The notes under the pieces: model-generated
Databases searched by the model: none
What the model was told of the DNA's origin: nothing
What the model saw: the letters and a program-made list of their open reading frames with translations, nothing else
Shown: positions 1-53,915 of the stretch, one piece after another
Position numbering within the stretch: the stretch's first letter is position 1
Layout of the letters: every line of letters starts with the position of its first letter
Assembly: GCA_012295275.1 (NCBI GenBank)
Contig: CM022673.1
Location: 27,838,001 to 27,902,000 of the forward strand
DNA length: 64,000 bases
Direction of reading: 5' to 3'
Source of the DNA: Chrysomallon squamiferum
Lineage: Eukaryota > Animalia > Mollusca
Program-made: the position numbers and the translations under genes

Positions 1-901
1 TATCTTTTATTTTTAATTTATTTATTTATTTATTTATTCTTACTTTTGTAATATAAAAATTAAAAATACACCATCGACAATAAAATAATAATAAAAAGAT
101 TTTTTTAAAACCCACAAAACTATCAACAACAAAAATAATAATATTTATGAACATAAATAAAATTTCCTATCGAAGTAAGCCACTAGTGTACTAAGACTGT
201 CATTTCTAGATTAAACCGTCCACGAATCCAATTTAAACATTTAGTTGGAGAGAGACGATTACTCTTTTTCTTTGTGTGCGCGCGCTCGCGTGTATGTGTG
301 TGTGCGTGTGAGTGTGTGTGTGTGAGTGTGTGTGTGCGCGTATGTGTGTGAGTGTGTGTGTGTTTCTGTGGTTGTGTGTGTGCGTGTGCGTGTGTGTGTG
401 TGTGTGTGAGTGCAGTAAAATGTAAATGGATAGATTAGTTTAGGGAGAAAAAAATTACGATTTCTCTCTTTGAAAAAAAAAAAATGTCCCCTAACAAAGT
501 ACACGAAAAAATATTTACTCCATAAATAATCACTGGCGACTGTAAGACTTAGTTAAGTGCAAAAGAAAGAAAAGAAAGAAATGCGTCAATAAGATATTAC
601 TTGAGGAAACTGATAATAAGAAGCACACAGGCAAGGGTCAAAGGGGAAATTCTGAGCTGGGACTGTCATGTCATTCATTATCACACTGAGAATTCATCTT
701 GGCTCCAGCTGTCAGACATTACCATATATAACCCCATATCACAGCCACTGAACTTTAAACTGATTTAGTCACATAACGTGCTCGTTAAAACAGAAAAGCC
801 TATAACGAGACCAGTTTGAACAAAACTGTTCACCATGTTTTTATCTACATTACAGATAGTTTTCTTTCTTGGTAAGTTCGTTAAATATTATAAAATAGAA
901 A

Positions 902-995
<94 letters not shown>

Positions 996-1201
996 GTGTA
1001 TGTATCTATGTGGGTAGATATCTGTCTCTTTTTTCTGAATGATTCTCCTCCGCATGTTTTTAATATAATTTTTACCTCTTCAAATTTGCACATAAAAAGA
1101 AAAACAAAGATCAAAAGAAATAAATAATGTCTTCCTGGGGTATTTCTTACACTTTTTAACACACACTTTACAGTTTTATATTTTATTTTATTTTACTTGA
1201 T

Positions 1202-1236
<35 letters not shown>

Positions 1237-1330
1237 TTAGTTTATATATATATATATATTTTTTTTATTTCATTATTTATAAATTTTACATATTTGTGTA
1301 ATTATTTATTTATAACGAATTATTTAAGAG

Positions 1331-1434
<104 letters not shown>

Positions 1435-2160
1435 ATGTATATATATATATTCACTCTATTTTATCTAAAATCTAACGGAAAGATAGTTAAATTTAAAAAA
1501 CAGAAAGGATAACGTTTTCAGTAACATTTTCATAATTAAAATACCATTTTATTTTTAAATTATTATCCATGCCTTTTGAACCCATCAGCTTAACAGGTGG
1601 GAACGTAATATAAAATGTAAAAGATTCTTTCCCTTTCAAAACGTAAGGTTCAGTTTGACCGAATTACACAGCAGTAAAACTGTACGACACACAGTGAAAC
1701 TCCACATACCGAAAAAAATAATGCATTGGCGGAAATATTTCATCATCATCAATGTCATCATTGTAATCAATAAACTTCATTCTGCGAAGCCAGTCTTTGG
1801 AGTGTGGCTCACCTCATATGGGTGAACGAGTGAGGGGTGGAGCAATGTTTTGGGTGGATCTTGCACAGACTAAATATAAAATCTCGTTGATGAAATTCTA
1901 AACACAGACCCACACACTTTGACTGTCTGTTATCTACGCGTTATATTTACAGAGATAATGATCTACTCTTATTTACTTTTTTCCTTATTTACTTATTTAG
2001 TTACTTTTTAACTTATTTATTTACTTAGTTAGTTATATAGTTATTTATTTATTTATTTATTTATTTGTAGGCTCATTTGGTTTAAACTTGTTCCCCGTCT
2101 ACGGTACACAGGTAATGTGTCGTTCGGTTTGAATAGATACTTACAAAATAACTGTAATAA

Positions 2161-2255
<95 letters not shown>

Positions 2256-2590
2256 CTCTCTCTCTTTCTCTCTCTCTGTCTCTATCTGTCTCTCTGTCTC
2301 TTCTACAAACAATCGCACTAATTCAACTTGATAATCGGCAACAGTCGAAGATAGCACACTGTGTATCAGATTTTGTTTTAAATTCATAGCAATTACAGTA
2401 CTGTATGAATATAAAACCTTTTTTTCTCCTATCTGTATGGGAATCACAGATATCATCCTGCGCTGAGAAATTTAAAGTCATCGACGGTCATTCGGCATGC
2501 TTATCTGACAAGTTGGGTAGGTTCTATTTTCTAATATTTCATATTAATAATCATATAATACGAAGAAGAAGAAGAAAAATAAGAATAAGA

Positions 2591-2630
<40 letters not shown>

Positions 2631-3636
2631 GTTTATATAAATATATGTATCTATAATGCATATAACTTTACGGTTAAAAAGTGATAAATTTCATAGATGT
2701 AAATAAATAGTAAGTACAAATGATTGATGGGAGAAGGACTGCGAAGCTATTATATTAGAAGTAATTTACTAGATTATGAAAATCAGGGCTTTTAAAACGC
2801 TGAAGGAAAATGTCTTTTCTGTTTTACTTTTTTTCATTATTGTCCTATCTTTTCTTTCTTTCTTTCTTTTTTCTATCTTCTTCTATTTCTTTCCTTCTTT
2901 CTTTTTCTTTCTTGTATTTATTTATTTATTTATTTATTTGTTTGTTTATTTATTTATTTAAATATACAGAAACATTACCTCAAAGTGACATTGATCTGAT
3001 TGTAAAAATGCACAATGAAATTCGATCACAAGTGAATCCAAGCGCTTCCAACATGTTACAAATGGTAAGTCATCATGACTGTAATTTCTTATTCCTGTGC
3101 TTTCTATAGGATTGTCTTTCGTTTTAAAATTGTTTATACTACAACTAGCGCTACAACAACAAAGTTACTACTACTGTTGCTACTTCTGTTATTACTGTTG
3201 TTTTTCCTAATTAGTTTTAAAAGATAAAAATATCTGTATGGTGAGTTATTATGAATGTATATCGTTTTCAGAAACGAATATTTACCGCTACTACTACTGT
3301 TACTACTATTACTTCTACTACTATTACTACTACTAATACTAATGCTACTACAACTATTACTACACTTGCTACCACTACTATTATTAGTACTGTTATTAAG
3401 GTTATTGTTGTTGGTAAGTTAGTGTTAAAGGATATAAATACATGTGTAATGAGTTAATGGCATATTAGCTGATAATATATATCTATATGGTATTATTAAA
3501 TGTCACTAGATAACATAATAATTTAAATTATCATCATCATCATCATCATCATCATTGTTATTAATAGTAATAGTAGCAGTAGCAGCATTGTTGTTGTTAT
3601 TATTATATGTATTTTTATCATTATTGTTAATATTAC

Positions 3637-3675
<39 letters not shown>

Positions 3676-3836
3676 TTTTATTTAAAAAGACGTGGGATGC
3701 TGAACTTGCAATGATAGCTCAAAGATTGGCCGACTCCTGTTCTATGGAGCATGATAGCGGAATCCAAAGAATGATTCCAGGTAATAGATTTATAGAAATA
3801 ATAAAATGCAAAACATTCTGGCTTCTCACAAGAAAA

Positions 3837-3875
<39 letters not shown>

Positions 3876-5987
3876 AAATAATAATAATAATAATAATAAT
3901 AGAATAAATAAGAAGAAGGAGAAGAAGAACAACAACAACAACTACAGTCTGACGCTTTTCCATTGATTCTCGAGCCATTATGACAGAAAGATTATTGTAT
4001 GTATTTACTGGTTATGCTGTGAAATAGCCAAATAAAATCTGTTAAAATGGTTAGCGTTTATTTTCAAGGGAAATTCCTGGTGGGACAAAACATAGCCGTG
4101 GGTGAGAAGAGCTGGCAAACGGTAATAAGCAATTGGGAAAGTGAGAAAAATGATTTCCAGTTTGATAACCCTAACGATTTTACAAAAATACAACGTTATA
4201 CGCTGGTAAGTACCAACAGAAAAAAAAAAAATAATAATAATATATACATATATATTAAAAACCATAAAAATGTCATTTTATAAGCTAAATGAATTAAAAT
4301 TATATTATAAATACATGTTTACTAATACAAAACTAAACATAATAAACATAAAATTATATACACGTATTTTGTATTAATCGTTCAGGTGTGTATCATTTTA
4401 CAAGGCAACGAATTAAAATGAAAGATTTATTTTTGTAAATTCGTCAATGTCGTCTTATCTCATAAGGTAAATTCAGGATAGCACTGCCATGTAAAAATAC
4501 ATTATAAAATTATTTCTCTGATAATAATAATTATTATGTACAAATGATCTACACATTTCAGATGGTCTCGGCTGAAACAAATAAAATTGGATGTGGTTTT
4601 GCAAAGTGTTCACAGAACTTCCATGTGTATGCAATTATGGACCAGCGTATGTTTTATTTATTTGTTTATTTATTTATTTGTTTGTTTGCTTGCTTGTTTA
4701 TTTGTTTGTTCGTTTGTTTGTTTGTTTGTTTATTTATGTTTGTTCGTTTATTTATTTATTTATTTTTTGTTTTTGTTATTATTGTTGTTATTGTTAACAT
4801 ACAGAGAGTATTACATACGATGGACAGGTATATTCAGTATCATATTTAATAATAATAATAATAATATGAAGAAGAAGAAGAAGAAGAAGAATTTGTTAAA
4901 AGATTGTTTTCAGTATCAGACTGTTTTACTTAACATTTATGCTGGGTGCTGCCTTAGGATAACGTTAATGCAGTGTGAATGCAAATTTTAAATAAGTATT
5001 TTACAATGATTTAAAAATACAATAAAATACAATGAAATAAATAATTATTGTGAAAATTATATCGTTGCTTTCCTATTTTATGCCATTTTAATTAATGAAT
5101 TTATTTATTTACTTGCAGTGGAAGACTAAATTTCAACAGCCCGTATGTGGAAGGAACACCTTGTGACAAGTGCAAAAAATGTGTTGGAGGAAAGCTATGT
5201 GGTGAGTAGTAAAGACTCATCAATAAAGAAACAGTGACTTCATTAATAAATAAATAGGAATTTTAAAATTTCTTTTTGTTCTCTGGACTGTCATATTTAT
5301 TTGTTTATTTATGTATTTATTATTATTATTATTATTATTCTCTGGTTTTCTTTTCTTGTTTGTTTGTTTGTTTGTTTCACTGTTTTCCAAATGAAATTAG
5401 TCCTGTTTCTAGGACGATGTATTATATTATTTTAAAAACTGATAGTAAAAATCTCGCCTATTAAGAAAGCGAAGAGGATTTGGATTATGTAACTACAGGT
5501 CTACATCAAATGGCGTGATGTCATCTCATATTCTTGCTAAAGTACTAGTGACGAAAAACAAAATCGTCCGTCTTTTTTCTGAACTTTTTTGCGAAACAAT
5601 TATCAAATATCTAATATTCAGTATTAATTAGCTAAAATTATTATCTGCTTATTTCCTAAGACAAACTGAACAGCTAAAGGAAGAATTACTGAAGTAGTAT
5701 TTAAAATACTTCAGAGACATTGTAATCGAACTGTAGCGCAAGTCTATGTTGAAATAAATGAAAATGATAAGCGAAAGTGAATATTAAATAATGATATGAT
5801 GATGATGATAACGATGCAGTTTTATATTTGTTTTTCTTTTGTTTCAAGACTGTGGACTGACGTGTCTAAATTTGGGAAGACTGGATCTCACTACTTGCAG
5901 TTGTAAATGCCGAATGAATTGGCCATTTTATGTTTTTGAAAACTGTTCATGCACGTATTTCATTTTGTTATTAGTGTATTTTAATTA

Positions 5988-6049
<62 letters not shown>

Positions 6050-6479
6050 GTAGTATTAGTATTAGTATTTATTACTAATCATTTGGTACTGTAATAATAA
6101 TAATGATAATAATGATAATGATGATAATAATACGTCATTATTTCTATCCATCTTTCTATAAATTTCTTCTAATATTAAATCTGTTAACAGAAAATATCTT
6201 ATACATTATTAGCTTCTCATTAAACAATATACTCAAATACTGTTTTATGGTATAATGCATATAACTATTTAGAAAAATAGAGAAAACAATAATAATAAAA
6301 AACTTTTAAAAAACTAACACCAAACCATGGACTACATTTTTAAGACAACAGTTTTAACAATGACTATAAATGTTTTATAATTAACTGTAGGTTTACAGTA
6401 TAGAAAAAAATGTATTACAACTATATAATTAGACTAAGTCTGTCTCACATATTTGTGATTAACAGACATAACGTTTTTT

Positions 6480-6850
6480 TAATATAAGCAAATTTTTGCT
6501 ATTAAACTAATTATTATAAGAAAATATATTTGGATGTCTCGTATATTATTTATATCGTATATCTTTTCTCGCATGTAATAATACCAGTTCATTACATTCA
6601 AATATATAATGAATTCATCTCCAATTTTGTCAAGATTACAAATATGACATTTTCTATTTTGTCTTGAGGTTCTAAATTTACATAAGACATTAGCATTTTT
6701 TGGAGTTGGCACTGTAAGATAATTTTCTAATTGCAATTCTTTTTTCAAAATTATATAATCAGTACGTTTTGGATACGTTTCAATTACAATTTTCCTCGCT
6801 TGCAAAAATTGATCATAAAATATTTTAGATACCGCTGCAATTCACCATTT
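6480..6850 (-). mobile_element. Degraded LINE (non-LTR retrotransposon) ORF2 3' fragment in a CAP intron
   Basis: Translation LENYL...LCKFRTS...RKCHICNLDKIGDEF(H)YIF.C matches the typical C-terminal CCHC region of invertebrate LINE ORF2. It is also present in unit B, so it predates the duplication. Confidence 0.8.
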
Positions 6851-6874
6851 AACATTAACAAAGTTGTGAAATGT

Positions 6875-6919
<45 letters not shown>

Positions 6920-7008
6920 AACCACAATCGTCTAAAATGGTTTTCGTTATATATCTATATTAAGTACGATATTTTAATAATATACTAAAATCCAAATCTG
7001 AATAGTTT

Positions 7009-7303
7009 GCCGTAACCACACTGAGGCAAATGAGGCAAATGATTCATACGGAAATTAACGGTTTTTTCTTTTCTTTTTTTTTTCACCAAGATTTTATTTT
7101 AAAAATATAAAATATAAATCTCTATTCCGATAGAAACGATATCCAGGGAATCAATTGGTTTATGTCTACGGTTACCTTTTGAAATCTACCGACATCATTG
7201 CAATGAAAGACATAACCGAATTCACAGACATCAGACATCCTTTTTTTCGTTTCAATCTTAGATGTTTTTGCCTCTTTTAAAAAAGAGTCTAGTTACGGCC
7301 ATG
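7009..7303. mobile_element. ~300 bp non-autonomous DNA transposon (MITE, hAT-like ends)
   Basis: Inverted ends GCCGTAAC (7009-7016) and GTTACGGC-CATG (7292-7303); subterminal GAGGCAAA/TTTGCCTC. The paralogous site in unit B reads 'atagtttg|tagtcattatta' (~22610), i.e. an empty site. Confidence 0.65.
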
Positions 7304-7861
7304 GCTTTTAGTCATTATTACTGTATTATCAGTTTTTTGTATAATCTTGATATATTGATTCTCTGAGTATTTAATGACTGTTGTTACTTTCTTGACAGTG
7401 GACTGCAGTAGAGGAAAAAGCGACACAGATGCTTGTCAGACGAACTTTGGAAGTAACCCGTGCTATCTCATAGGATTTGACTGCCCTAACAGATGTAAAT
7501 TTTGTCCATGTAAGTATCGATAAATCAAAACGCTGCCATAATAATAATCTGTGATAGAAATGAGAGTTCTGAATTAAATAGTAAAACTGATTTTTTCTAA
7601 AACTATAATAACTATTAAACTATTAAAATACAAGATTTCTAACAGATGAATTTTGTGTTTTAAGTTTATGTCCTGAGAATGCTTTTTCTTTCTCTTCCCG
7701 TCTCAGATGCAAGTTTTGACGCAGACAACAGCAAATCAAAAGCAGATCAGCTTTAAGTAAACACTCAACTTGCATTGTGTCTTATTAAGTATGACTTACT
7801 GAAACAGAGAACTTTAATTTTTTCAAAAATAAATAAGTAAAAAGATTTGGATTTGTTTCTT

Positions 7862-7893
<32 letters not shown>

Positions 7894-8170
7894 TCTGCTG
7901 AGCATAGTAATTATTTTAATTCATTTAATTTTTAATTACAGCATAATAATTTTATTTTACTGAAACATTTATTAGGCCTATATTTCATTACACATTTTGT
8001 ATTGTTGAAACATAAAGGATGTAATGTTAATATTGATTATAAACTCTATTAGTCAATATGAAGTACAAACTTCAGTTTTGAATTAAAGTGGATCTTTTCC
8101 TTCGGGTATCTGAATTCGTTTTATGTACATTATTTTTAAAGTGTACTTTTATGAAGAATACGATATATAT

Positions 8171-9302
8171 TGTCACGGGGCCCAGTGCATAAGAGGTGTT
8201 AGCTTACAAATGCTAACGACCCTGTTAAAATATAGACTCGTTTTTTTCTTTTCTAATTAAGAAACTGACGATTGATTATAATAGATACATATATTTGCAG
8301 ATACTACAGATCTAAACTATATATAATATCAAGTATCCACTATGAACACCAAAACAAAACACAGTATTTATATCACACAGATAATTATTTATTTTACACA
8401 TGTATACTTATTATTTAGTGGTTGAGGACGTGGGAGTTGGTGTTAAATGAAATATTATAATTCTTAATTTTTTTTTAATTTTCCCTAACAGGTTTTCTTA
8501 GAAATAAATATATAACTCAAACTCTCTATGCAGCATATTACAGGCAACATCAAACGGATCAAAAAATCAAACAGAGCATACACAAACAGGATAACCATGT
8601 GTCCCTTCTTCCGACAACGATAACGCAAAATATAATTACCGATAAAATTGCCTAATAATGGCCGACAACTCCTCAGTCATACCCGTGTCTTCTCTTTGTT
8701 CTGTGTTGTCTCCCCTCTCGTCTCTTTTGTCTTTTACTTAAATAAACACGTCGCGGACCTACTTGAAGTCATCAGAGCGTAGCTGAAAAAAATTCCTTTT
8801 GTCTCTCGCTAATGATCTTTAATTGTTAGGTGATTTCAGTTATTGGATTACTGTTAACTAACACTGTAACAGTAGATAGTTAATTAATACATACTATTAG
8901 GAATATTTGTAGAAATGAATGGTTAACATATTTACTTACTTTAATGATGCATACAGGTTAATTAGGAGATGTTAAACTGTATTAAAGTAAGCTATTTTGG
9001 TAAATAGTAAATTTGTTACCGACATTTTCAAAAACGGCACCTTAATAGTACTACAATACAAAATATTATAATGAGTTAAAAAAAAAAAAAGCTCGTGGCG
9101 AATTCTACAAGTACGTAAAAACTAAACTGCGATCCGTGGCTTGGTAAATAAGTTAGGACCATTTTGATAAGTTAAATAAACACAGAAAACAGTACATCTA
9201 AATGTCGCTGATAAAACTTTCCACAGCTTGAACGAGGCTCTGTTACGGTGTGGCTAAGGGCCCTTCTACGTAAGGTAAAAAACATAGTTTACCGTCATAA
9301 CA
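8171..9302. mobile_element. ~1.13 kb unit-A-specific insertion with TG...CA ends, possible solo LTR
   Basis: Absent from unit B (~24110-24140). Begins TGTCACGG and ends CCGTCATAACA, inside a TA/CA microsatellite. No clean TSD and no ORF. Confidence 0.4.
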
Positions 9303-9770
9303 CAGACTCACACACAAGCGTGCTGATTTATTTGGTATAAGACATAAACCTTTGCTAATTATAAAGTATGACAATAAAACAATGTAGATCATATCATATC
9401 ACAAATATTTCATCAACAATATGAACAAAATAAAACTAAACAGAAAACAAGCAAACTTGATACTTATGGCAGAATGATATTAATAAAGGCAAAGAAATTA
9501 AAGTAAATCATTGTAATATTTGCTGAACCTATCACCCCTCAAGGATCTTTTTATTTCTATTCCAAGAAATGAAATATTACAGATCTGTATTTGTGTGTAT
9601 GTGTGTGATGATGTTTTGAATACATATTAAACATAAAGCACCATTTCTAATAAAAGCTTGAAAGTGCACAATATACATATTTATATTTGCAGTTTGTTTA
9701 AACCACCAAAGGCACATAAAACAAATAAAATCTCAGGTCACTGTATTCTTTTACTAAAAGTCCTTTGTAT

Positions 9771-10525
9771 TCATGATGATTTCTGTTTTTTTGTTTGTAA
9801 CGTCAGCCATTGGAGTGTGTCGTATGTTAGCTGTGTGTCGTATGTTAGCTGTTGGATCAGATGACAAAATTTTCGACTGTTTTAATGTCTGACGTATTGT
9901 TCTCAGTTTGTTTCGTATCTGCAACTATCTGTTGAATGTGATAAATGTTTCTTTTTTAAAACATGTAACTGTAGATACTCATTCAGGCAGAGAAAACAAG
10001 AGAATGAGGGATGAGGAGTGATAGAGAGAAAAGAAGAATGAATGAACTGGATATATTATAAAGTTCTTGGCTTGTTTGTGATCTGTTAGGTAATGGTAAA
10101 ATTATTTTAAAAAGAAAAAAAATTATTAATAGAATGAATAAGAGCACATTAACTTCTACTACCCAGAACAGACTGACAGCTTATTTCATGTATATGTAAA
10201 TCAAAAGTCATATAGCAATATATTTTACTTATAAAATCATTCCACTTACATTTTATTCTACATATTCAAAGCAATGTATTATTTTTTTTTCTTTCTCTGT
10301 TCATTTTTGTTTTTCTATAAAATTAATTAATTTTATTATTAACTCTTCTTGTAAAATATATTAAAATATTTCATAACAACATGATGTTGTATTAAAATTG
10401 TATTAAATGAATGATGATATATCAAATGTAGAAATAAAATTAAAATATACCTTGTTTTCTCATCTGAAAGTCCACTTTTTGGCTTTTTCAGTGTATAAAG
10501 CTTCCTTGTATTTAAATTCATTAGA
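9771..10525 (-). pseudogene. UBE2T: Truncated duplicate of the last two UBE2T coding exons
   Basis: Exon from 10525 translates SNEFKYKEALYTEKAKKWTFR* (a deletion gives TGA at 10462-10460). The terminal exon copy at ~9771-9920 has an ~18 nt tandem duplication (tgtgtcgtatgttagc x2). No upstream exons, so no catalytic Cys. Confidence 0.88.
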
Positions 10526-13354
10526 CTGAAAATATAATCAATTTCAAATTAATTCCATCTGGGACATGTTTATTTTCAGTGCTTTTGGAAGAAATAAAGA
10601 TTATTTATTTCTTGATAAATTTATTGATAATTATTTATCTAAAAGAATGATGCTACTAAAACATAACTGATATGATATATATATATATTGTTTTAGTTAG
10701 TTTATATAACTGCTGTTTAAATCGCACATAAGTTGAACTAAATACTATTTCTGTAGATACTTAAAATTATGAAATTTAATTTTCTTATCTTATTTAGGTT
10801 ATTTTTTTCTCATTTTGTTATATTACTGAAGGTGTTTTTTAAATTTAATTATTTATTTTGATTTTTGATTTTTCTTCTTTAAATGTAAGAAAACTGAAAA
10901 CAAATAAATCACAGAAAACAAGAAAATAAACTTAAAATAAAACAATTATTTCAAGCCATTATACTTCATTTTGTTGTTTTTCATTATCAACAAACATATA
11001 AGAATCTAAATATAAAATTTCTATTTAATTTAAACCCATTCACCCAATATAAACTAACCAAAAAAATGGTAATAAAAAAAGAAAAGAAAAAACAGACAAC
11101 TTAAATTTTAGACTAATTATTTGAACAATTTGTTATAGGAAATAATTAGTTTTCCTTAAATATATTTTTTGTCATCAACTTATTTTTCTTTTAAATTGTA
11201 TATAAATGTTTACATTTATTCAAACATTCCTTTCTGTCACTTTCAATTTTGTATTTATTTATTTATTTATTTTTTGCAACAAATTCTTTTCAGTGAGTTT
11301 TCTTGTAAAATTTTATTGCATATTTTTAATCCCTTATTGCAATTGTATATGGTGAACAGGCAGGACCAAATAAAAGGTACAAGCCCTGATGTTAAAAAGT
11401 AACTACTGCAGAATCATTTTTCTTCTGCACTGTGATAATTTTGGACTATTTTTCTGAAGTTGTAACGTCATCATTCATTTATCTTTCTTTGTTTCTTACT
11501 GATTTCATACTACATATTACTTTAATTACTCATATTTCTTTCAAAATTTTCTTTACGTTCTTCTGTCATACGGCAAGAACTTTTATAATCCTAATTATCG
11601 CTTAGAAAGTACGTGTTACAGTCAGGTCCGTAAATTAAGACAAACGAGTTCTCATTTCAGTAATATCAAAGAGTTAAATATTAAGGTAATAAACCTAAAG
11701 CTGATAAAGTATAACCAAAATGAAGATAAATGCACACACTACATATATAAAGTAATGGTTATTGTCTGGTGTCTATGTCTACGTTGAACAGAAGCAATTA
11801 CTTCAGCTAATTTCAAATAAAAATGATTGTAATTTATTACTCTTTGAAATAAATTTAAATCCAGATCAAATCCTAATTTGTTGCTTTGTTTACAATGAAC
11901 ACCTGCAGGTATAGTTTGTAATGGTTTCTTTTTAAAAGCCTGGAAAATCAAGAGGAAGTCGCTGAGAGGCTTGGCAACGGTAACAATTTTCTGGAGCCAA
12001 ATCCTTTCCACTCTTACGTAATCCTTTTTCACTACTTCTGTCTGCATTGATGTAACCTTGCAATATTTAAGTGTTTAAAATTTATAAAAGCTAAAAATGA
12101 TAATCTCATGGAGTAGTAGATGTTTGATATTTGTCTCTATGTGAAATGTGTTTACACAAACACACTGCAGCCTTTCCTCCTGCCCTACTCAAGTCATGTA
12201 TTTATAAACTAATTTTCAGTTTCTTGTGTGATATCAACTACATAATGTTTCGATGATTTCCATAATAATTGAAACCTAAGTTTCAAGTTTACTACTAAAT
12301 GTTCTGTGGTATTTTTATTTACATATTTCTTTATTTATTCATTTATTTATTTATTCTTATTTTTGTAAAATTAAAATTAAAATTACACCACCGACAATAA
12401 AATAATAATAAAAATATTTTTTTTAAAAACCCACAAAACTATCAACAACAAAAATAATAATATTTATGAACATAAATAAAATTTTCTATCGAAGTAAGCC
12501 ACTAGTGTACTAAGACTGTCATTTCTAGACTAAACCGTCCACGAATCCAATTTAAACATTTAGTTGGAGACGATTACTCTTTTTCTCTGTGTGCGCGTAT
12601 GTGTGTCTGTGTATATATATATATATATGTGTGTGTGTGACTGCGTGTGTCTGTATGTATGTGTATATGTGCGTATGTGTTTGTGTGTGTGTGTGTGTGT
12701 GTCTGTTTCTATCTGTGTTTCTATCTGTGTATATCTCTGTCTACATATATGTGTTCGTGTCTGTGTGCGTGTTTGTCTGTGTGCGTGTTTGCGTGTGTGT
12801 ATGTGTGTGTAGTAAAATGTTAATGGACAGAGATTCATTTATGGAGAAAAACAAAATTACGATTTTTCTATTTGATAAAAATATCCACTAACGATGTTGA
12901 CGATAAAATATTCACTGTATAAATACTCCCTGGCGATGGTATGATTTAGCTAAGTGCAATCGGAACACAGGGCTCATATAAGGAAAGAAAAGAAAGAAAT
13001 GCGTCAATAAGATATTACTTCAGGAAACTGATAATAAGAAGCACACAGGCAAGGGTCAAAGGGGAAATTCTGAGCTGGGACTGTCGTGTCACTCATTATC
13101 ACACTGAGAATTCTTCCTGGCTCCAGCTGTCAGATTTTTGTTATCTTCAACTTATGTATTCTCAAAAATGATCAGTGCACCCGTCGATAAATTTGCGCCA
13201 ATCGCAGCGTTGTCAGCGACTCCGATGTAGTCCTGCATTACCCGATATAACCACTTCACACATACACTGAACTGTAAACCGATTTAGTCATATGAGCTGT
13301 TAGTTAAAACGAAAAAGCCTATAACGTGAACAGTTTGTCTAAAGACTGTTGATG

Positions 13355-23380
<10,026 letters not shown>

Positions 23381-24374
23381 ACATCCAGCTTACGTCTGTC
23401 TTATTATTACATCAGGTTTTAAGTAAAAACCCACTTACGTCTGTGACAGTTTTTCAGTAAAAAATACTAAAAGTAAAAAAAGGTGATTGTCTTTTTGTTT
23501 TTAAAAATTTACGTCTGAACATATTAATTTATTGGGTTTAATGATTTAAACACCCAAGTCTGTCTTATACAATAAGTAAACACCCAACGTCTGTCTTACC
23601 AATGAATCTTACGTCTGTCTTACTAATCTAATGAAACAAACGTCTGTCTTACTACAATTATCACGTCTGTTTATGATTGTCTGTTTTGTTTTAAGAAAAT
23701 AATGACAGTTTTTCACAAAAAGTATGATTGTTTTGTTTTTTAAATTTGCTGAACATAGTAAGTGCAGCTGTGGTGTATATATCTTTGTAATGAATAATAC
23801 AATAACAACATTAACATTTATAATAATAATAATGCAATTATAACTGAAAGACGTGAAAATGAAGCTAAATGCAAATATCTGACGATTTTTTAATTATTTT
23901 ATTTTTTAAATACACCATAATTTTATTTTAATGAAACATTAATTAAGCATATATTTCATTATACATTATGTATTGTTCAAACACAAAGTATATGATGTTA
24001 ATATTGAAATAAACTATGTTAGTCAATATAAAGTAAAACTTCAAATTTTAAAGTGAATCTTTTCACCCAGGTATATGTACACTAGTTTTAAAGTGCACTT
24101 TTATGAAGAATATATATATATATACATACATGCACAAAGATGGTATATGACATAAACCTTTGCTAATTATAGAGTATGACAATAAAATAATGTAGATCAT
24201 ATCATAAATATATCTTCAACATTATGAAAAAACAAACAAAACGATAACTAGATAGTTATAGCATAATTATATTAATAAAGGCAAACGAACAAAAAGTAAA
24301 TTATTGCAATATTTGCTGCTTCTATCAATCTTCCAGGATTTTTTTATTTCTATTCCAATAAATTAAATATTACA

Positions 24375-24429
<55 letters not shown>

Positions 24430-24598
24430 CGCGTGATGACATGCTTTAAATACACATTATACATGAAGTACGGTATCCAACAAAAACTTGAAAGTGCACA
24501 GTATATGTTTATTTGTGCAGTATGTTTAAACCACCAAAGGCACATAAACCAAATAAAATCACAGGTCACTGTATTCTTTTACTAAAAGTCATTTGTAA

Positions 24599-28038
<3,440 letters not shown>

Positions 28039-28210: not shown

Positions 28211-28416
28211 TAACATCAACTATTTTCTGTGTCATTACATATGTTTCTACCAATATATTTTTTCCAAATGTAATATGGTTAATATATTTTACGACAAACA
28301 CTTCAAGGGAAAATTTAGTTTATTAAAAACCCACAAGAAATGGTGCGTTAGCATCTCTTTATTTTAGAGACGGAAATTGATGATAAAATAATGTAAAAAT
28401 ACCTATAATTACGAAT
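28039..28416. promoter_or_regulatory. Putative bidirectional promoter between UBE2T and VHL
   Basis: Divergent start codons only 378 bp apart. Contains an (ATT)n tract and a CGGAAAT ETS-like core near 28371. Confidence 0.7.
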
Positions 28417-29112
28417 ATGCATTCAAATTTAAAATCGATAAACTGTGATACACAAGTAAGTGTAATTTTCAAAAACGATACGCAACGCAAAATCGACATT
28501 TACTGGATAGGTTATGACGAGAGGTACGTTCGTTATGCTCGTAATTTGGCACCAGGTTGTATCTTCAAAGTGTCAACATTTGAGACGCATCCTTGGATTG
28601 CAAGAGATACCAAAACGGGAGCTGTGATTTGCTTTAACAAACGTCAGAATGTCTTCATTCCTGAAGCTAACGAACATGGTTTCCCAGTGATAGTAACATT
28701 AAATATACCAGGTGATTATTGTTATTATTACTGTTACGTTTACTTTGTTAATCTGAACATTACTTAGCCTATTTCTTTTCAGTTTAAATGCATATATAAA
28801 ATTGTTGTTGTTGTTAAATTTGATTATGTTAACGTATCATTATCTGAATATTATTCAAGTATTTTGAGTCTAAATCTAGTAAATGCTTGTATAAAATTAT
28901 TACTGATTTAATGCAAGTAAAGATATTATTTTTTTTTTTTCAAATATACACATTTTTGTTTTTCAGTGTACTCACTAAAAGAAATTTGTGTTCAAATTCT
29001 CTGTTACATGCCCATTTCTGATGTTAATAATCTCGAACTGCCAGAGGAACTGAAAGAAAAGTTAAAAGAAAAACGTTCACTGAACTGTGACAAGGAGTAT
29101 ACACCTCGCTGA
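28417..29112 (+). CDS. VHL: von Hippel-Lindau protein homolog (CRL2 substrate receptor), ~146 aa
   Basis: Exons 28417-28711 and 28967-29112. Beta domain LKSINCDTQVSVIFKNDTQRKIDIYWIGY...RY...STFETHPWIARD; alpha domain with BC-box PVYSLKEICVQIL and LELPEELKEKL. Confidence 0.92.
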
Positions 29113-33929: not shown

Positions 33930-36900
33930 TAACAATAACAATAACAATAACAACAACAGCAATAATAATAATAATAATAAAATATAATATTTTAATAATG
34001 GTGGTCACAGTAAGAAAATCTGCCATCCAAAATTTTAAATTTTCCAAAAATTATTCTCAAAGAAAGTTTCACTAATATAGACTTTCAAATCAGTGAGAAG
34101 AAAACATGGTATACACTTCACCTTCTCATCTACTTGTTCCGCTATAGTCTTTGCTGAAGGTCTACGTTGGACCATTTCACCTCCTGCAGTTTCTACAATA
34201 TTTTTTATATCCACAACTGGAGGAACAACACTGGGAGTCACGTAAAATGTCAGACCCTGAAATGATGAACAAGAAATTTACAGTACATTTTTTAAATTTT
34301 TATTTTGTTATTAAAATAAATTTACAGTCATTAAGAATAAATAGTCTAGTATAATGTCACACCCAAACACACACATTATATATATATCTTTGTTACAGAT
34401 TATAACAATATTGTAACAAGACCACAAGTATGAACAGAGGTTTGCATTTTTATTATTTTACTTGTGACATTATTTCATACAGAGAATTGCAAATATTTCT
34501 TGACCAAAAATATATGGCTTAATGAAAATTCAGTAAGATAAATATGAATGTTAAATACAAATGGCTGAAACAGAAAATGGTGTCATCAAAATATAAAAAA
34601 GTGACTGATTTTCAGTCCTCCATTGTTTTAGGATCAAATAGCGAGACAGAGGTAAATACACAGAGACTCTTTATCCATTTGTTAACCTTGTACTGACCTT
34701 GAACAGTGGCTTTGATCTTGCTTTTCGAACTGATTCTGCCAACCTGCAGCCCAATTCAGTTTCACCTTTCTCATCATTAAGAAAATATTTTTCTTCATCT
34801 AAAACGGAAAAAAATAAAAATAAAAATATAACATACGTTTAATCTCAGAGTGCATTGTAATGTCTAAAAACGAACAGCCCTAAATACAGTAATTTTAATA
34901 ACAATAAACTAATTATTTTCTTCACCTAGAAACCTGTGCTGCAGAAGGCTTTCTTCCAGCCAAGTCTTTGTGAGGATATACTTGCACACGTTGATTGCAA
35001 TGAAAAACTTCAGCGTTCGTGATATGACCTGCGTCACTAGGTGAGTGCATTCTTTAGGATTGGTAACAACAACACCACCCAAATCTTCTACAATCTGAAA
35101 AACAGAAATACACAGCTGGGTTATCTGTTCCACAAGTCACACAATTATAATACTTTTACAAGTCTGTAAAAAGGTAGCATTCAACAGTATTATTTTATTG
35201 TCATATTTTACTATAGGTTTTGTAGTATAAAATAAAATAAAAATTAAGAAAGATAAAGAATTATATTAAACCATTAATTCAAGTAGCCACAGGCATACTT
35301 TAAAGTTCAAATATGTGTAGTTCAGAAAATGTCAGACAATGCACTTATGACATCCCTAGATTCAATTATGAATACTGTATAAATTGTTTAGTACATAATA
35401 AACTTCTTAATTACAGTTTATAATTAATGCACTGTTTAATATCTTACCGATGAAAGTTTCTTGCTTACAGAACACGAGAATCCTGTAAACAAAACTCTGG
35501 GTTTTGAACCATCATCACCTGCACTGTTAAGTCTAAAATTTAAACAAATTAAATTTAAAAAAAATTAATGTTAAAATGTATTGATATATTTGTGCATTTC
35601 TCACTGTATAAAAAACATATGCTTTGAAATTATTTATATAAAACTGTATGGCAATGTAATAAAGCAAACTTTTATTCAAGTGACTAATAAATACCCAGAG
35701 AAAGATTATAAAATGATGTTATCATCAGTTTCACGTGTAATTAAATCTACAATAATTACAACAATAACCTAAAAGATAAAATTAATTTTGTTAAATTTCA
35801 AATGTTCATTAATTCTTTTTATTTTAGTTTAATTTTTTTGTTTTTCACTACTATATATGCTAATTTATCTACTTTAATTTAAGTGCACACATTTGAAACA
35901 TGTTTGAAAAACAACATCTTCACCAAAACTTTTATTAATGTAAAAAAAATAAAAATAAAAATAAAATTATAACAACTTCAGTGTTTTATAATAAAAAGTT
36001 CAATTGTGAGGACATTCATGACAGTTCATGTAAACGTACCTCATCCTCTTAGCACTGGAGTCTTCCTTGCCACTTTCTGAAAGTGAACGTTTCTGTGAAC
36101 CATTTTCTTTGTCTGGTTCTGTAACTGGCTTTGGACGAGGGATAAACCGCTTAAAAAACAAAACACCAAATGTAAATCCAATATTAAAACACAAAACTTT
36201 TATAAATAAAACTGAAAAACAAAACTTTTTACTTTTTAAAAAAAAAAAAAAAAAAATTAAATAAATAAATAACAACAAACAAACGTTGGTTAACTTCATT
36301 TATATTTCAATATGAAAATAACTAATTTTATGTTACTGGCTAAATAAACAGGATCATTAAAACATATATATATATATATATATATTTTTTATTATTATTA
36401 TTTGTTCTTTTATAATAATCATTTCAATAATAATAAAACAAAAGACAGTTTAATAATTTTTACCTTCCATGCGTCTTTAGAAATTTTTAATGGGTTTTTC
36501 CAGCCAACTGAAACAGAACAAAACACACATATTTATTTAAGTGGAAGATAGTAAAGCTGTCAGTTACAAAAAAACAAGACTTCATGATTATCAAAGATTA
36601 ATTTCTCAAAAAAAAAAAAAAAAAATTTAAATTCTGGTTCCAGAAAGAAGTAAATAAAAATTTGATTCCAGAAACCAGTAAAAAAAATAATATAAAATTA
36701 ATTTGTAAGTAAACAAAATGTATTTATTGCCGTCAGTTCAAACCAATGTACTGTAACAGAAAGCTGTTAAAACTACCCACCCATGAGATGAGGAACTCGA
36801 GACAGATCCAGGAGAAAGTCCCTGCCCTGGCTGTGTTGTAGGTATCGGGTGTGGATGGGCAACCTGAGGGCATCGAGGTGTCCAACAACGAGATCGGACA

Positions 36901-37068
36901 ACCAGGACACGTTCACAACAGGAATTCGCCATTCCTTGGCCTTCGAATACTTAGCACCTTCAGGTCTGGAAACAAACCAAAATACAGTGAAAACAGTAAC
37001 AAGACAGGTCTGTATGGGGATGTACTCTGTGTGTGTATGTGTGTACATATGTATGTAGGGATGTACTC

Positions 37069-37101
<33 letters not shown>

Positions 37102-39000
37102 CTGTGTGTGTGTGTGCACATGTATCTTTGACTTTACACTCTATTTATAAGCTGCAAAGGTTTATTTACTTCTTAGCAATGAGGACAGAGGTTGTGTGAG
37201 TCATATATCCCGTGTACTTGGCACCCAAAGCATTTATCATCTGTTTGATTCTCTTCCTTTCTTCACCATCAAAATTTGTTATGGACATAACCTGGAAAAT
37301 ACAAATTTAACAAATTATCCAAAAATATCTTTTCATATGCCATAAACAACTACTTATTTTATATACCATCTTCCACTGTTACATTTCAGTATAACTACAA
37401 TAATTAGAATCTCTTCATTTTTCAGATCAAAGATAAAGTGTTTATCTAGCAGCAGTACATGTAATAATCAATGATTAACTGTAAAGATTTTTCATGGAGC
37501 AAGTCTACAATAGCAGCACCTTTCGTGATCAGATTTCGTCAAAGAATTAAAACAAAAAAAGCAGAGAAAAGGAACATAAATTTTTTTTTTAATTTCTACC
37601 TGTTTACTGCAAGGTTTCTGATCCCAGAACAACAGAGGCAGATGAAGAGCCTGCCATGGTGGAATCATCTTTTTCTCAAGAAGGACGTCGTTGAGCCAGA
37701 ATGCGGTTACTAAACGTCTCTGATCTTTCAGAGCCTGCAAGTGTCGTAATAAATAAAACTTAAAGTTTCTTTATATGAATTTTATCCCTAGGTTGTATAA
37801 GTATCTTTTTTAAAAATTGGAAGTAATGATACTTTTAATGGTAAAAATTGTAATGAAGAAGACAGAATACAAGGGTATTAACAAGAATTCTTAAGAACAA
37901 GATAAGTTAAAAAAAATAATAATAATATTTTCATTACAAATAAGTCATACTGTATATTAGATTTACTGCATGAATACTATTAAAATAGGAGATGAAGATG
38001 TGTGGATTTTGAGAGAACCAGATATCATATCAATATTATATAGTAATATTTATGTATATACTACACAGTTTATCAGCTGTTTATTTATGCTGGGAACAGG
38101 TTCAAACTCACAACAACAAAGACATCACTTTGCTGGTTTGCACAGAGAACATGCGTCACTCTGCTAGAATAGGAAACATCCATCTGGCCACCATGTTGCT
38201 CAATAACCTAAAAATAAAATTAATTTTGTAAATTTCCAATACTCATTTATCTAAATTTTTTCCTTTCTTTTTTTTTTTCCTTTTTCGCTAATGAATATGC
38301 TAATCTTTGAAATGCATATTTAAGAAAAAAGTATCTTCAACAATACTTTTATTAAAGTAAAAAAAAATTTAAATAAAATAACCTGCCAATTGAGAGTGAT
38401 AAAAAAATCTTAGATAAGAAGAAACAAATATTTTTATTTTATTTTTAAACATTATGAATAAAAACAGATTAAAAATGAGCAAAGTTAATGGAAATTCTTG
38501 AACAGTAATACATTAGATTAACATTTTATATAATAATTTTTATTTTACTTATTTATTTTATTTGCTCTAGTTAACAATAAGGTATACAAACATTATTAAT
38601 TCATTTCTAATTGCATTCCACAACTGATTCAGAAAGTTGCACTTCTGTGACTAAACATGTGAAACTGATATATATATATATTTTTTTTTTTTCCTAACTG
38701 ATGTTGCCTAATTGATATAATTGTGTTTATAACAGTGAATAAACTATTGAATAAACTACACAGACACAATTTAAAATATCTCACAAGTTTCCAGGTGTCT
38801 ATCTCCTCCTGCCCAAGAATCTTCTGATAATCAGTAACAAAGAACACACAGCCAAGCAGACACATGTCAGGTGGAACTGAGGTAAAGATAGAGTATACAT
38901 ATATTAATACACGTTATTCATTCTTTTATCATACATACCAGTAATACACAATATTACATATCTACCTATCTATCTATATCTATAAAACACCATTATTACT

Positions 39001-39032
<32 letters not shown>

Positions 39033-42000
39033 CATATGTATGCATATGTATGTATGTATAAAGATATATATATATATATATACACACACATATACTTATA
39101 ACTGAGCAATATACAGCTTTTTTATAAGATTGTAAGCACACACAAACTACCAAGATATATCTAAACATATTTTTTATTTATTTCACTGGTATTTGATTGC
39201 ACAGTGATTATAAACTTACTTTAATTTTATTCTTTATGTGCATGATGATGGCTGATTACTCCAATACGACACCAAAACCAATCATTATGAAAATAAGTTA
39301 TTTTTCGTAAACATCATCATTCTTTTCATGTAGATATATATATATAAAGATATCTATGATGAGAACAAGAACACAGTGATAATTTTTCTGTTAGTAAACT
39401 CACCGCTGTCTGAAGGATCATGGCCCCAGTACTGTGGTGTTATTGGAGGGGTGGGAACAGCCAGAGTTTGCAGAGGTGGGTGGGGGTAACCAGGTATGGG
39501 AGGCACAGGACGACTAGGTGTCACGCCCAATTTCTGCTGTATCTGTTTATTTACAATGAACAAAAAAAAATTAAAATAAAAATTAAAAAAATATATATTT
39601 AAAAATTATGAAAATGTTCAGACCTGTTAATATATTAAGTTTTGGAATGTTTAAAATATGACATGCTAAGTAAATTTAAAGGTAATTAGCTTTCTGAATT
39701 TACAGCAGCTGAACTAGCAATACATTTTCCACTATCCTGCACTGTTAGCAGTAACATAAAAATAAAGCAAAAACAAGATCAGTTTGAAAATTTACAAATA
39801 CTGTTCAAAACTGTTTCTAAGCTAAATTCAGAATTTGTTCTGTATATTTTACTTTTTGCAGTTTTCAGTCGGACTTTTGAAGCAGAAGATTTGTTTTATA
39901 ATCACAAATTACAATAAACCATCAGCTTATTGTCAAAATATTTTACATTTGTCATCCTCAGTAATCATATTTATCATGATGCAAAATAACGGCATTTTAT
40001 TCTTTATGGTACTAACATGGTACTAATATCAAATAAATAAAATAAAAAAATAATGTCTAGTAAACTTCATTTTGACCAGTAGATATTTTTAACATATTTA
40101 TCACAATGCACAGTAATTTCATGTAAATAAAAAGATAAATGTCAAGTAAACTTCATTTTGACTACTATAATGCACAGTAATGGCAGGATACTAACATCAA
40201 GTAAATAAAAGGATAAATGACAAATACAGTTGAGATATTTTTAATCTACTTACTCTGGCTACTGTTGGTCGAGGTGGTTCAACATTATTGGTGATATTTT
40301 TCAGAGTTCTGTTTGGCTGTTGTACTTCTTGTTGCTGTTGCTGCTGCTGTTGCTGCTGGTGCTGGACATGAGGTGCGGCCATCCTTGGCGATCCTTGTGA
40401 ATGACCGTGAGGAAACACCATGGCTGGGGGAGTAAGTCGGGGGTCGGGGCTGTCAACAACCTTTCCACTTGCCTGCAGTCGGTTACTGACCATTCTGGCC
40501 AGGGCTTCTTTTGCACTGGAACTGGGCGTCCCAGGACGGCTGCCATTTCGAGGAGAATCATCTGATGACGACTTGCGCCGAAGTCCAGTAACAATCTGCT
40601 GAGCCATCTGCTGTCCAGGGCCAGGACTGATAGCCAGTGACCTCTGCAGCTGCTGTTGCACTTCTGCTTCAGGCTCTGTTTGTGGCTGAGGTTGTGGTGG
40701 TTGTTGTTGCTGCTGCTGTGGTAGTGGTTGCGGTTCTGGTGTTGGAGGAGGTGGGGGTGTGGCTGGTTTGTATGTAACCAGACTCGGGTGATAGATTTTC
40801 TCATCCTGCAGTGCGTTCTTGGAAACACTGTCTGTGATCCAGTCTGGACAGATTATTTTTATGTTTTCGTGATTTTTCGCTGCTTCGTATTTTGCCTGTA
40901 AATATTAAAACAAAACTAGAAAATGCTTTCAATTTTTGTTGGAGGTATTGTCAGTACAGCCTTTCTTTTCTTTTTATTTTTTTTAAAGTTCATTTAAATG
41001 AATTTGTAAATGGAGAATAAATTATATTCTATATGATGTCTGTTTGTTTTCATTTATTGTTGAACATTAAAAATCTAAGGAAATTACTTTATTTATTTTT
41101 TTATTTATTTCATTGCTATTTTTCTTTCACATTTAATAATAATGTAAAATATCTGATACACAAAGCAAAGACAGAAATGAAATGTTTCAAATTTTTAAAT
41201 CCAGCAGTTTCAAGCGTACAGTAATAGATGATTTTTTTGAGTTTATATTTATACAAATAATTTTTATTTTTATTTTCTTAAAAACCGTATTTCAACTTGA
41301 AACAGTTACCGATGTTGTTGAAGATGTCACTAAATGTGTAACATTTTTATCAAGTCGGAGTTGACAGTGTCCACCATGATACTTCACCATCCCCCACACA
41401 ACTTTGGCATCCTCCTTATCCAGCTGCACAAAAATAAACCACAATTAAATAAAGATATTTTCTTGTAATGACAACATTATATTTCACTTTTTTATTTTAT
41501 ATCATCCATAAATGACATCAAGCACATGATATTTCTGAAATAACTTTCAGCAAAAGCCTGAAACAAATTAATTTTTTTTTATTTCATTAATTTATCACAT
41601 AGTTTATACTTATTGTCTTGCATATTATATAAAATAAAATTTAACAAAAATTTGTCTATTCATACTAATATATGTGAAATACTTACATTAGATGGACAGA
41701 CTACAATTCCTGAAAAGAGATGTCCTTCAAGGCAAAATATTTCTTTTCTGTTTATGGGTCAAGGTTTATTAGCATTCTGTTGAAATGTTTACAACTTAAA
41801 AACCAACAACTGGGAAATGTATAATAGGAAAAAAAATATTAAACTAAATGAAAACATTCTCAATACACTGATACACAGTTATTATTCATTTGAGAATTAT
41901 ATTACATAATAAAAGTGATCAAATAAAATATTGCTATAAAATATAACACCATTAACAGTGATTGCTATATTTTAAATTAGTAAAAAAAGGTAACATCAAA

Positions 42001-48100: not shown

Positions 48101-48327
48101 TTGATCCTGTTGTTACATTGGTTGAAGTGTACAACGTAACTCTCTGTTTCTCAGCTGATGATCACCAGGCTCTGATCTGGGACATCCAGCAGATGCCACG
48201 TGCCATCGAGGACCCCATTCTCGCCTACACCTCATCAGGAGAGATCAATCAGATCCAGTGGTCGTCCACGCAGCCCGACTGGATAGCGATATGCTACAAC
48301 AACAGCCTGGAGATTCTCCGGGTGTGA
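44899..48327 (+). CDS. DCAF7: DDB1- and CUL4-associated factor 7 (WDR68/HAN11 WD40 protein), ~348 aa
   Basis: Exons 44899-45054, 45324-45425, 45827-45925, 46025-46138, 46653-46785, 47206-47357, 47739-47856, 48155-48327 (1047 nt). [42 protein letters not shown]...[23 protein letters not shown]...[15 protein letters not shown]. Confidence 0.97.

Positions 48328-53876: not shown

Positions 53877-53915
<39 letters not shown>

What the first reader, a model, noticed from the sequence alone, without database searches (positions are those of the whole stretch)
4069..4205. Exon diverges faster than its introns between the two CAP paralogues: 18 replaced codons vs 1 silent
Seen: hand alignment of exon 6 (4069-4205 vs 19738-19874) gives 18 amino-acid-changing codons and one purely synonymous codon (CTG/CTT). 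That is about 30 substitutions in 137 nt, whereas the ~100 nt of intron just upstream differs at only a handful of positions. A neutrally decaying pseudogene should not diverge faster in exons than in introns. Known: exon-accelerated evolution is typical of toxin, immune and gamete-recognition gene duplicates, and CAP/CRISP proteins are recurrent venom components, including in molluscs. Inference: at least one copy went through positive selection after duplication.
Basis: partly seen in the sequence, partly recalled or inferred. Interest (0 to 1): 0.8.

Follow-up and report, generated by a model that had tools for sequence, protein, structure and literature searches.

The report
Fast-evolving exon in duplicated snail gene
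In a pair of duplicated snail genes for a secreted cysteine-rich (CAP) protein, one exon really did change about twice as fast as the introns, mostly on the line leading to the now-broken copy, likely from a short burst of selection for a changed binding site; this is a known pattern after gene duplication, the statistics are only borderline, and nothing points to venom.

Summary
The counts are exact: 30 differences in 137 nt, 18 replaced codons and 1 silent. The framing overstates them. Neutral change gives about 20:4 (P≤1 silent 0.07-0.08). The upstream 97 nt (5%) is unusually conserved against a 12% intron mean, and dN/dS from exon 6 alone (1.3-1.7) is not significant. With a pooled neutral rate, omega is 2.4-2.7 (nominal p 0.002-0.015), borderline after allowing for 10 exons and for uneven non-coding divergence. 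New here: against a Gigantopelta orthologue (61%), 11 of 13 polarisable replacements lie on the line to copy A, including loss of the CAP-cavity His. Two DNA runs hold a third version sharing most of A's exon 6, and a non-B contig is in frame where A is frameshifted, so the burst likely predates A's inactivation. Silent sites are not older, which argues against conversion from an old paralogue. Both spliced RNA contigs are B-type. A also lacks B's hydrophobic tail. Relatives occur in scallops, oysters and brachiopods, so venom is unsupported. Verdict: real, likely episodic selection after duplication, a known kind of event.

The parts
835..7756 (+). Copy A of the CAP gene, 11 exons (835-871, 2071-2111, 2450-2516, 2970-3064, 3690-3780, 4069-4205, 4562-4646, 5119-5201, 5849-5950, 7399-7509, 7707-7756); broken
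4069..4205 (+). Exon 6 of copy A: GQNIA motif, helix, aromatic loop and GHYTQ motif of the CAP domain; 11 of 18 replacements are A-derived, including G152Q, H153R, Q156L (B numbering)
4161..4205 (+). Most divergent part of exon 6 (17 differences in 45 nt): the loop aligned to the Pry1 aromatic loop plus the cavity His motif
   Evidence: weak, motif-anchored alignment, E 0.14-0.4
4628..4629 (+). 2-nt insertion in exon 7 of A; the shifted frame stops at 5127-5129 after 187 codons
5951..5952 (+). GC instead of GT at the intron-9 donor of A
7707..7756 (+). Last exon of A, lacking 39 nt of Asn-rich spacer and 41 nt that encode B's hydrophobic tail
13355..23380 (+). Copy B, intact, 11 exons (13355-13391, 16937-16977, 17283-17349, 18504-18598, 19420-19510, 19738-19874, 20281-20363, 21003-21085, 21578-21679, 22704-22814, 23247-23380), 326 aa: signal-like N-terminus, CAP domain, Cys-rich region, hydrophobic tail
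   Evidence: spliced RNA contigs across exons 6-7-8-9
19738..19874 (+). Exon 6 of copy B, keeps GHYTQ; 30 of 46 residues match the Gigantopelta orthologue (A: 21 of 46)
8..10643 (+). Duplicated unit A (alignable non-coding flanks; may start left of the window)
12324..25500 (+). Duplicated unit B

Best explanation
Exon 6 changed about twice as fast as the introns, mostly on the line leading to copy A, likely through a short burst of positive selection that remodelled the predicted ligand-binding loop and cavity of a duplicated CAP protein before copy A was inactivated. Shown: a tandem pair about 12% diverged in non-coding DNA; B is intact, spliced, and keeps the family's residues and hydrophobic tail; A carries the exon-6 excess, has lost the cavity His and the tail, and is frameshifted. 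Inferred order: (1) duplication into B and an A-type ancestor; (2) a burst of replacements in exon 6 of the A-type ancestor while its frame was open; (3) a further split into A and a third copy about 3% apart; (4) A broke. Inferred function: B is a likely membrane-anchored CAP that binds a divalent metal and lipid; the A-type protein would have lost the metal-binding His and changed its sterol-loop surface, like tetrad-less lipid-binding CAPs.
For: Exon-6 omega 2.74 (p 0.002) with shared dS, 1.9-2.3 with the intron rate, and 2.44 (p 0.015) with double hits; it differs from the other exons (0.69) at p 3e-5 and is the only one of 10 exons with p<0.05. Polarity: 11 A-derived, 2 B-derived, 5 ambiguous in exon 6 against 12, 7 in exons 3-10 without 6; A-derived rate 11/46 vs 12/208, p 0.0006. 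The 11 A-derived codons hold 18 nt changes against 8.2-9.4 expected on one lineage (p 0.002-0.008). Silent differences in unreplaced codons are 1/15.3 sites vs 10/127 elsewhere. A third version in run X2 differs from A at 9 of 227 nt where B differs at 33; at least 11 of 16 A-derived changes are therefore shared, against 5.6-6.7 expected (p 0.03-0.08). A non-B contig in X4 is in frame at A's break, and two contigs in each DNA run carry Trp159. All 21 Cys are kept in A with no in-grid stop, and replacements avoid conserved columns overall (6 of 49 vs 12.5 expected, p 0.011).
Against: Exon 6 alone does not reject omega = 1 (p 0.34-0.36) and the whole gene gives 1.0. The exon was picked after looking: times 10 exons, the double-hit p becomes 0.15 and the empirical non-coding null (P of ≥18 replaced and ≤1 silent 0.005-0.022) becomes 0.05-0.22. 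Double-nucleotide mutation is significant in this pair (p 0.0005), and such codons are a known source of false positives (10.1101/165969, abstract). All 6 hits at family-conserved columns are in A (W93, G152, H153, Q156, W159, N186), which looks like loss of constraint. The third copy is seen only as separate contig pieces, 5 of its 9 differences were not listed, and its state at His153 is unknown. Neither of the 2 spliced RNA contigs is A-type or third-type (depth about 3). Polarity rests on one outgroup protein at 61% identity, with no outgroup DNA.
Confidence: 0.55

Rival explanations
1. Relaxed selection plus clumpy mutation: the A line lost constraint soon after duplication, and exon 6 is the upper tail of an uneven neutral process with many double-nucleotide mutations.
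For: Whole-gene omega 1.0. Non-coding 137-site blocks range 4-31 with variance three times the mean. Scan permutation P 0.084. 18:1 is not significant. A has a frameshift, a GC donor, two deletions in the last exon and six hits at conserved residues. No A-type RNA contig among 2 spliced contigs.
Against: Relaxation caps at the neutral rate, but A-derived changes alone are about twice it. Silent sites in the exon are not raised. The other exons are slower than introns. All Cys are kept. A non-B in-frame contig exists.
Confidence: 0.3
2. Gene conversion: exon 6 of the A line was copied from an older, unseen paralogue, or conversion homogenised the rest of the unit and spared exon 6, so the exon is simply older.
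For: The family has more than two versions. Divergence is patchy along the unit and the flanks of exon 6 are slightly below average (intron 5: 6.8%, intron 6: 10.4%). Exon-6 dS by pathway counting is 0.21 against 0.11 elsewhere.
Against: An older tract should be rich in silent changes: 1 seen against 4.8 expected at donor dS 0.4 (P 0.05), though dS 0.2-0.3 is not excluded (P 0.25-0.11). The excess stops at the exon borders. A's residues are rare in the family (many found in 0 of 24 homologues). No donor lies in the window.
Confidence: 0.11
3. A venom or toxin gene under predator-prey arms-race selection, as in snake CRISPs and cone-snail Tex31/Mr30.
For: CAP fold; the orthologue's best PDB matches are snake CRISPs; database names read 'cysteine-rich venom protein-like'. 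Snake venom CRISPs show Ka/Ks>1 (PMC6062510, passages).
Against: The same names are on scallop, oyster, chiton and brachiopod proteins. The nearest relative is from a vent snail that hosts endosymbionts (PMC5333402, abstract). B and 16 of 24 homologues end in a hydrophobic tail suggestive of membrane anchoring. In snake CRISPs the selected sites lie mainly in the C-terminal CRD/ICR domain (PMC7150914, passage), whereas here they lie in the CAP core.
Confidence: 0.03

Closest known systems
Gigantopelta aegis XP_041367728.1 ('cysteine-rich venom protein kaouthin-2-like', 342 aa; P0042) and the lophotrochozoan CAP + Cys-rich family
   Same: 61% identity to B over 298 aligned residues, next best hit 49%; same CAP domain with GQN in place of GEN and the same Cys-rich C-terminal region; CAP fold in the model (pLDDT 78).
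   Different: Only one Gigantopelta protein appeared among 35 hits. Here there are at least three versions, one with a remodelled exon 6, no cavity His and no tail. No function is on record for this subfamily in the papers I found.
Exon-accelerated venom gene families (snake PLA2, 3FTx, CRISP; 'ASSET')
   Same: A coding segment more diverged than nearby introns between recent duplicates (PMC2711939 and PMC6062510, passages).
   Different: One exon of ten, omega not above 1 gene-wide, one lineage only, in the CAP core and not the toxin-like C-terminal domain, and in a lineage with no sign of venom.
Tetrad-less lipid-binding CAPs (Schistosoma SmVAL4) and yeast Pry1/Pry3
   Same: SmVAL4 lacks the CAP tetrad yet binds and exports sterol; in Pry1 the tetrad (His208, Glu215, Glu233, His250) binds Mg2+ and a flexible aromatic loop (CBM) binds sterol (PMC4921858, PMC7340583, passages). 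Exon 6 spans the positions of Glu215, Glu233, the loop and His250.
   Different: No binding was tested here. The alignment to Pry1 is weak (E 0.14-0.4), and the exact CBM limits (around F239-F244) are recalled, not read. Copy A as it stands makes no full protein.

Membership tests
CAP superfamily (PF00188) | CAP domain with alpha-beta-alpha fold and CAP motifs | tested here: met
   Orthologue PF00188 E 8e-22 and CAP fold; B exon 5 hits PF00188 only weakly (E 0.047, below cut-off; 1 of 5 exon pieces hit); B exon 7 hits SmVAL4 at E 2.5e-6. The spliced B protein itself was not scanned against Pfam.
CAP superfamily (PF00188) | Cavity tetrad His-Glu-Glu-His | tested here: inconclusive
   B has His101, Gln117 (Gln is the family norm, ≥20 of 24), Glu136 and His153, so 3 of 4; A has Arg at 153, so 2 of 4. 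His153 is present in 24 of 24 chosen homologues, but left-out multi-domain or faulty models have Arg (Octopus repeat 6), Pro (Haliotis repeat 2) or Asn (Pomacea P0027) there.
CRISP proper (CAP + hinge + ShKT-like CRD/ICR) | C-terminal CRD/ICR domain of vertebrate CRISP type | tested here: inconclusive
   Pfam finds only CAP in the orthologue. Foldseek aligns 172-246 columns to snake CRISPs, with rmsd about 2 Å for the short alignments and 6.6-8.2 Å for the long ones; the Cys-rich tail is longer and lower in confidence.
Venom CAP/CRISP toxins (Tex31, Mr30, svCRISP) | Expression in a venom or salivary gland and secretion into prey | not testable with these tools
   RNA runs carry no tissue label and are contigs only; indirect evidence is against.
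Exon-accelerated toxin gene families | Ka/Ks above 1 across the mature coding region, exons faster than introns | tested here: not met
   Whole-gene omega 0.85-1.0; all exons 10.2% vs introns 12.0%.
Exon-accelerated toxin gene families | A local coding segment faster than the neutral rate | tested here: inconclusive
   Exon-6 omega 2.4-2.7, nominal p 0.002-0.015, borderline after correcting for 10 exons.
GPI-anchored CAP proteins | C-terminal hydrophobic anchor signal | tested here: inconclusive
   B's best 15-residue hydropathy window is 1.82; 16 of 24 homologues reach ≥1.6; A lacks the segment. No GPI predictor was run.

The most novel reading that the evidence does not exclude
After duplication, one CAP copy in a symbiont-hosting snail lineage was rebuilt by positive selection into a released, metal-free ligand scavenger: cavity His lost, sterol loop rewritten, membrane tail deleted. 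An intact third copy still encodes it, probably at the host-microbe interface, while copy A is its dead twin.
Probability: 0.17. Interest if true: 0.6.

Novelty: new member of a known kind. Interest (0 to 1): 0.3.

Why it matters
If the burst is real and the third copy is intact, B and that copy form a natural before-and-after pair, about 12% apart in DNA, differing chiefly in the CAP cavity His and the adjoining aromatic loop. What these two sites do is still argued for the CAP superfamily, and the pair would allow a direct test in a non-venomous mollusc. If it is only relaxed selection, it is an ordinary decaying duplicate and a good warning about raw replaced:silent counts and hand-picked intron baselines.

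Tried and rejected
No whole genome is held for this window, so other copies could not be read directly. Word-indexed protein searches with B exon 6 and with the B exon 7 region found nothing; phmmer (34 hits) and an alignment query (35 of 1671 candidates) supplied the relatives. The top phmmer hit with six repeats is an Octopus protein, not this locus. An exact-pattern scan of metagenome contigs found 0 matches. tblastn and blastn show no third CAP copy inside the window. Template switching or local copying as the source of the 3' cluster: the longest matches were 8-12 nt of AT-rich sequence, not convincing. Assembly artefact: rejected by the X4 contig matching 4071-4434 with 1 difference. Exon 6 alone under the double-hit model did not converge to sensible values and was not used. 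Copy number from contig depth was not trusted, because overlapping contigs are summed. Lack of A-type RNA contigs is weak, at depth about 3. Paper searches found no study of this subfamily or of this duplication (2, 185 and 2 papers matched; I saw listings only, apart from the papers named); the library lacks most subscription papers, and no supplements were opened.

Full report
Locus. The window holds a tandem duplication, unit A at about 8-10643 and unit B at 12324-25500. Each unit carries an 11-exon gene with matching exon lengths and AG/GT borders. Copy B gives an open 326-aa protein with a hydrophobic N-terminus, a CAP domain, a Cys-rich region and a hydrophobic tail. Copy A has a 2-nt insertion at 4628-4629 that leads to a stop at 5127-5129, a GC donor in intron 9, and two deletions (39 and 41 nt) in the last exon, the second removing the hydrophobic tail. 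No third copy lies in the window.

Observation. The comparison is flattering in two ways. First, 30 random changes in this exon give on average 20 replaced and 4 silent codons, and one or no silent codon in 7-8% of trials. Pathway counting gives dN 0.269 and dS 0.206, ratio 1.3, p 0.80. Second, introns overall differ at 12.0% (316/2629 strict sites) or 13.7% unmasked, and 30 non-coding blocks of 137 sites range from 4 to 31 differences. Exon 6 is still faster than introns (p 0.0014; 0.012 unmasked) and than the other nine exons (56/710, p 7e-6), which are slower than introns.

Tests of selection. A pairwise codon model gives omega 1.7 for exon 6 alone (p 0.34), 0.82 for the rest and 1.0 for the gene. 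With one shared synonymous rate exon 6 gives 2.74 (p 0.002), and with the intron rate 1.9-2.3 (p 0.0007-0.005). Ten of the 18 codons carry several changes, and adjacent double changes are significant in this pair (p 0.0005). Allowing them gives 2.44 (p 0.015), the only one of 10 exons below 0.05, and still different from the rest at p 3e-5. Such codons are a known cause of false positives (10.1101/165969, abstract read). Laying real non-coding mismatch patterns on the exon gives P(≥18 replaced and ≤1 silent) of 0.005-0.022 under three maskings. After allowing for ten exons the evidence is borderline.

Relatives and polarity. phmmer with B exon 6 gave 34 hits, and an alignment query gave 35 of 1671 candidates. 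The closest is Gigantopelta aegis XP_041367728.1 at 61% over 298 residues; the next is 49%. Others come from scallops, oysters, a chiton, a brachiopod, a nemertean and land and sea snails. I aligned 24 mostly full-length, single-CAP-domain homologues, leaving out fragments, arthropod hits, multi-repeat models and near-duplicates. With Gigantopelta as outgroup, exon 6 has 11 A-derived, 2 B-derived and 5 ambiguous replacements (p 0.022), while exons 3-10 without 6 have 12 and 7 (p 0.36). A has lost G152, H153 and Q156, present in 23, 24 and 23 of 24 homologues, and outside exon 6 also W93, W159 and N186; B has lost none that A keeps. All 21 Cys are kept in A, and replacements avoid conserved columns overall (6 of 49 against 12.5). 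His-less repeats do occur among the left-out proteins, including an Octopus repeat with Arg at that site. By a weak, motif-anchored alignment to yeast Pry1, exon 6 spans three tetrad positions and the aromatic loop before GHxTQ. PMC4921858 and PMC7340583 (passages read) describe the tetrad as metal-binding and a flexible aromatic loop as sterol-binding; the loop's exact limits are recalled. The orthologue's model (pLDDT 78) has the CAP fold, with Gigantopelta residues 141-154 and 163-172 helical and 155-162 a loop, which covers the replaced positions 136-171.

Other individuals and RNA. Eleven runs were listed, and I laid four on 2330-5900 only; the tables were cut (113 letter rows and 193 pieces not shown). 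An X4 contig matches A over 4071-4434 with 1 difference. The two spliced RNA contigs, one each in X8 and X9 at depth about 3, carry B's letters and confirm the junctions of exons 6-7, 7-8 and 8-9; none is A-type. Of 35 listed differences that I classified, 14 are neither A nor B. One X2 contig differs from A at only 9 of 227 nt over 3973-4199, where B differs at 33, and two other pieces give 5 vs 14 and 5 vs 37. So a third version exists, about 3.4% from A (19/559). In X4 a non-B contig is in frame at A's break, and two contigs in each DNA run keep Trp159. In X4 intron 6, the A, B and third types stand at similar depth (37-50, 45, 44), which fits a third locus better than an allele, but depth here is rough. 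Assigning these pieces to one copy is inference. If they do belong together, at least 11 of the 16 A-derived changes in the covered span are shared, against 5.6-6.7 expected on that stem (p 0.03-0.08). The third copy's state at His153 was not shown.

Conversion. An older tract should be rich in silent changes. Unreplaced codons of exon 6 show 1 in 15.3 sites against 10 in 127 elsewhere; a donor at dS 0.4 or more is unlikely (P≤0.05), one at 0.2-0.3 is not excluded. No local template explains the 3' cluster.

Mechanism. The best reading (0.55) is asymmetric evolution after duplication: B stayed close to the ancestral, likely membrane-anchored CAP, while the other copy took a burst of replacements around the CAP cavity and aromatic loop, split again, and one daughter (A) broke. 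The sequence differences, polarity, B's splicing and the third version are shown. The order of events, selection as the cause and any change in ligand binding are inferred. Relaxed selection with clumpy mutation remains a strong rival (0.30), conversion a weaker one (0.11).

Comparison and novelty. Exons outrunning introns is known from snake venom families, including CRISPs (PMC6062510, PMC2711939, PMC7150914, passages read). Here it is one exon, one lineage and the CAP core, and the gene-wide test is not met. Venom is unsupported: the names are shared with filter feeders, and the nearest relative's genus hosts endosymbionts (PMC5333402, abstract read). Three searches found no paper on this subfamily or duplication, within a library that lacks most subscription papers. 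It is a new member of a known kind, of modest interest unless the third copy proves intact and expressed.

Noticed in passing
window 7707-7756 vs 23247-23380: A 41-nt deletion with a 2-nt microhomology removes exactly the hydrophobic C-terminal tail in copy A; whether it came before or after the frameshift is unknown.
   Followed up: partly
window 4111, 4151, 4169: A-type exon-6 contigs differ between runs X2 and X4 at these sites; 4111 and 4151 would change the amino acid if the rest of the codon is A's. This hints at continued variation among A-type copies.
   Followed up: partly
window 2483-2488 vs 17316-17321: Two adjacent codons in exon 3 differ at 4 nt (DG vs NN); the Gly is ancestral, so B changed, and NHS creates a possible N-glycosylation sequon in B.
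   Followed up: no
window 5849-5950 and 7399-7509: Exons 9 and 10 (Cys-rich region) also have many replacements (8:3 and 9:0), omega 1.4 and 1.1, neither significant.
   Followed up: partly
window 28414-28764: VHL beta-domain exon (PF01847, E 9e-12).
   Followed up: no
window 36776-40904 (minus): BRCT-domain gene with a Gln/Pro-rich stretch (PF12738); PAXIP1-like by recall.
   Followed up: no
window 47103-48324: Exons that resemble DCAF7/WDR68 by recall; no Pfam hit at 0.01.
   Followed up: no
window 52973-54983 (minus): MYG1 exonuclease exons (PF03690).
   Followed up: no
window 14283-16600 and 17400-18300: Two B-specific insertions in introns 1 and 3, the first starting with about 1 kb of degenerate (CT)n; no second copy of their unique parts in the window.
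   Followed up: partly
P0001 (Octopus vulgaris, 1934 aa) and P0002 (Haliotis asinina, 636 aa): Multi-repeat models of the same CAP unit (6 and 2 repeats) in which the last repeat has lost the cavity His; His loss after tandem duplication may recur in this family.
   Followed up: no
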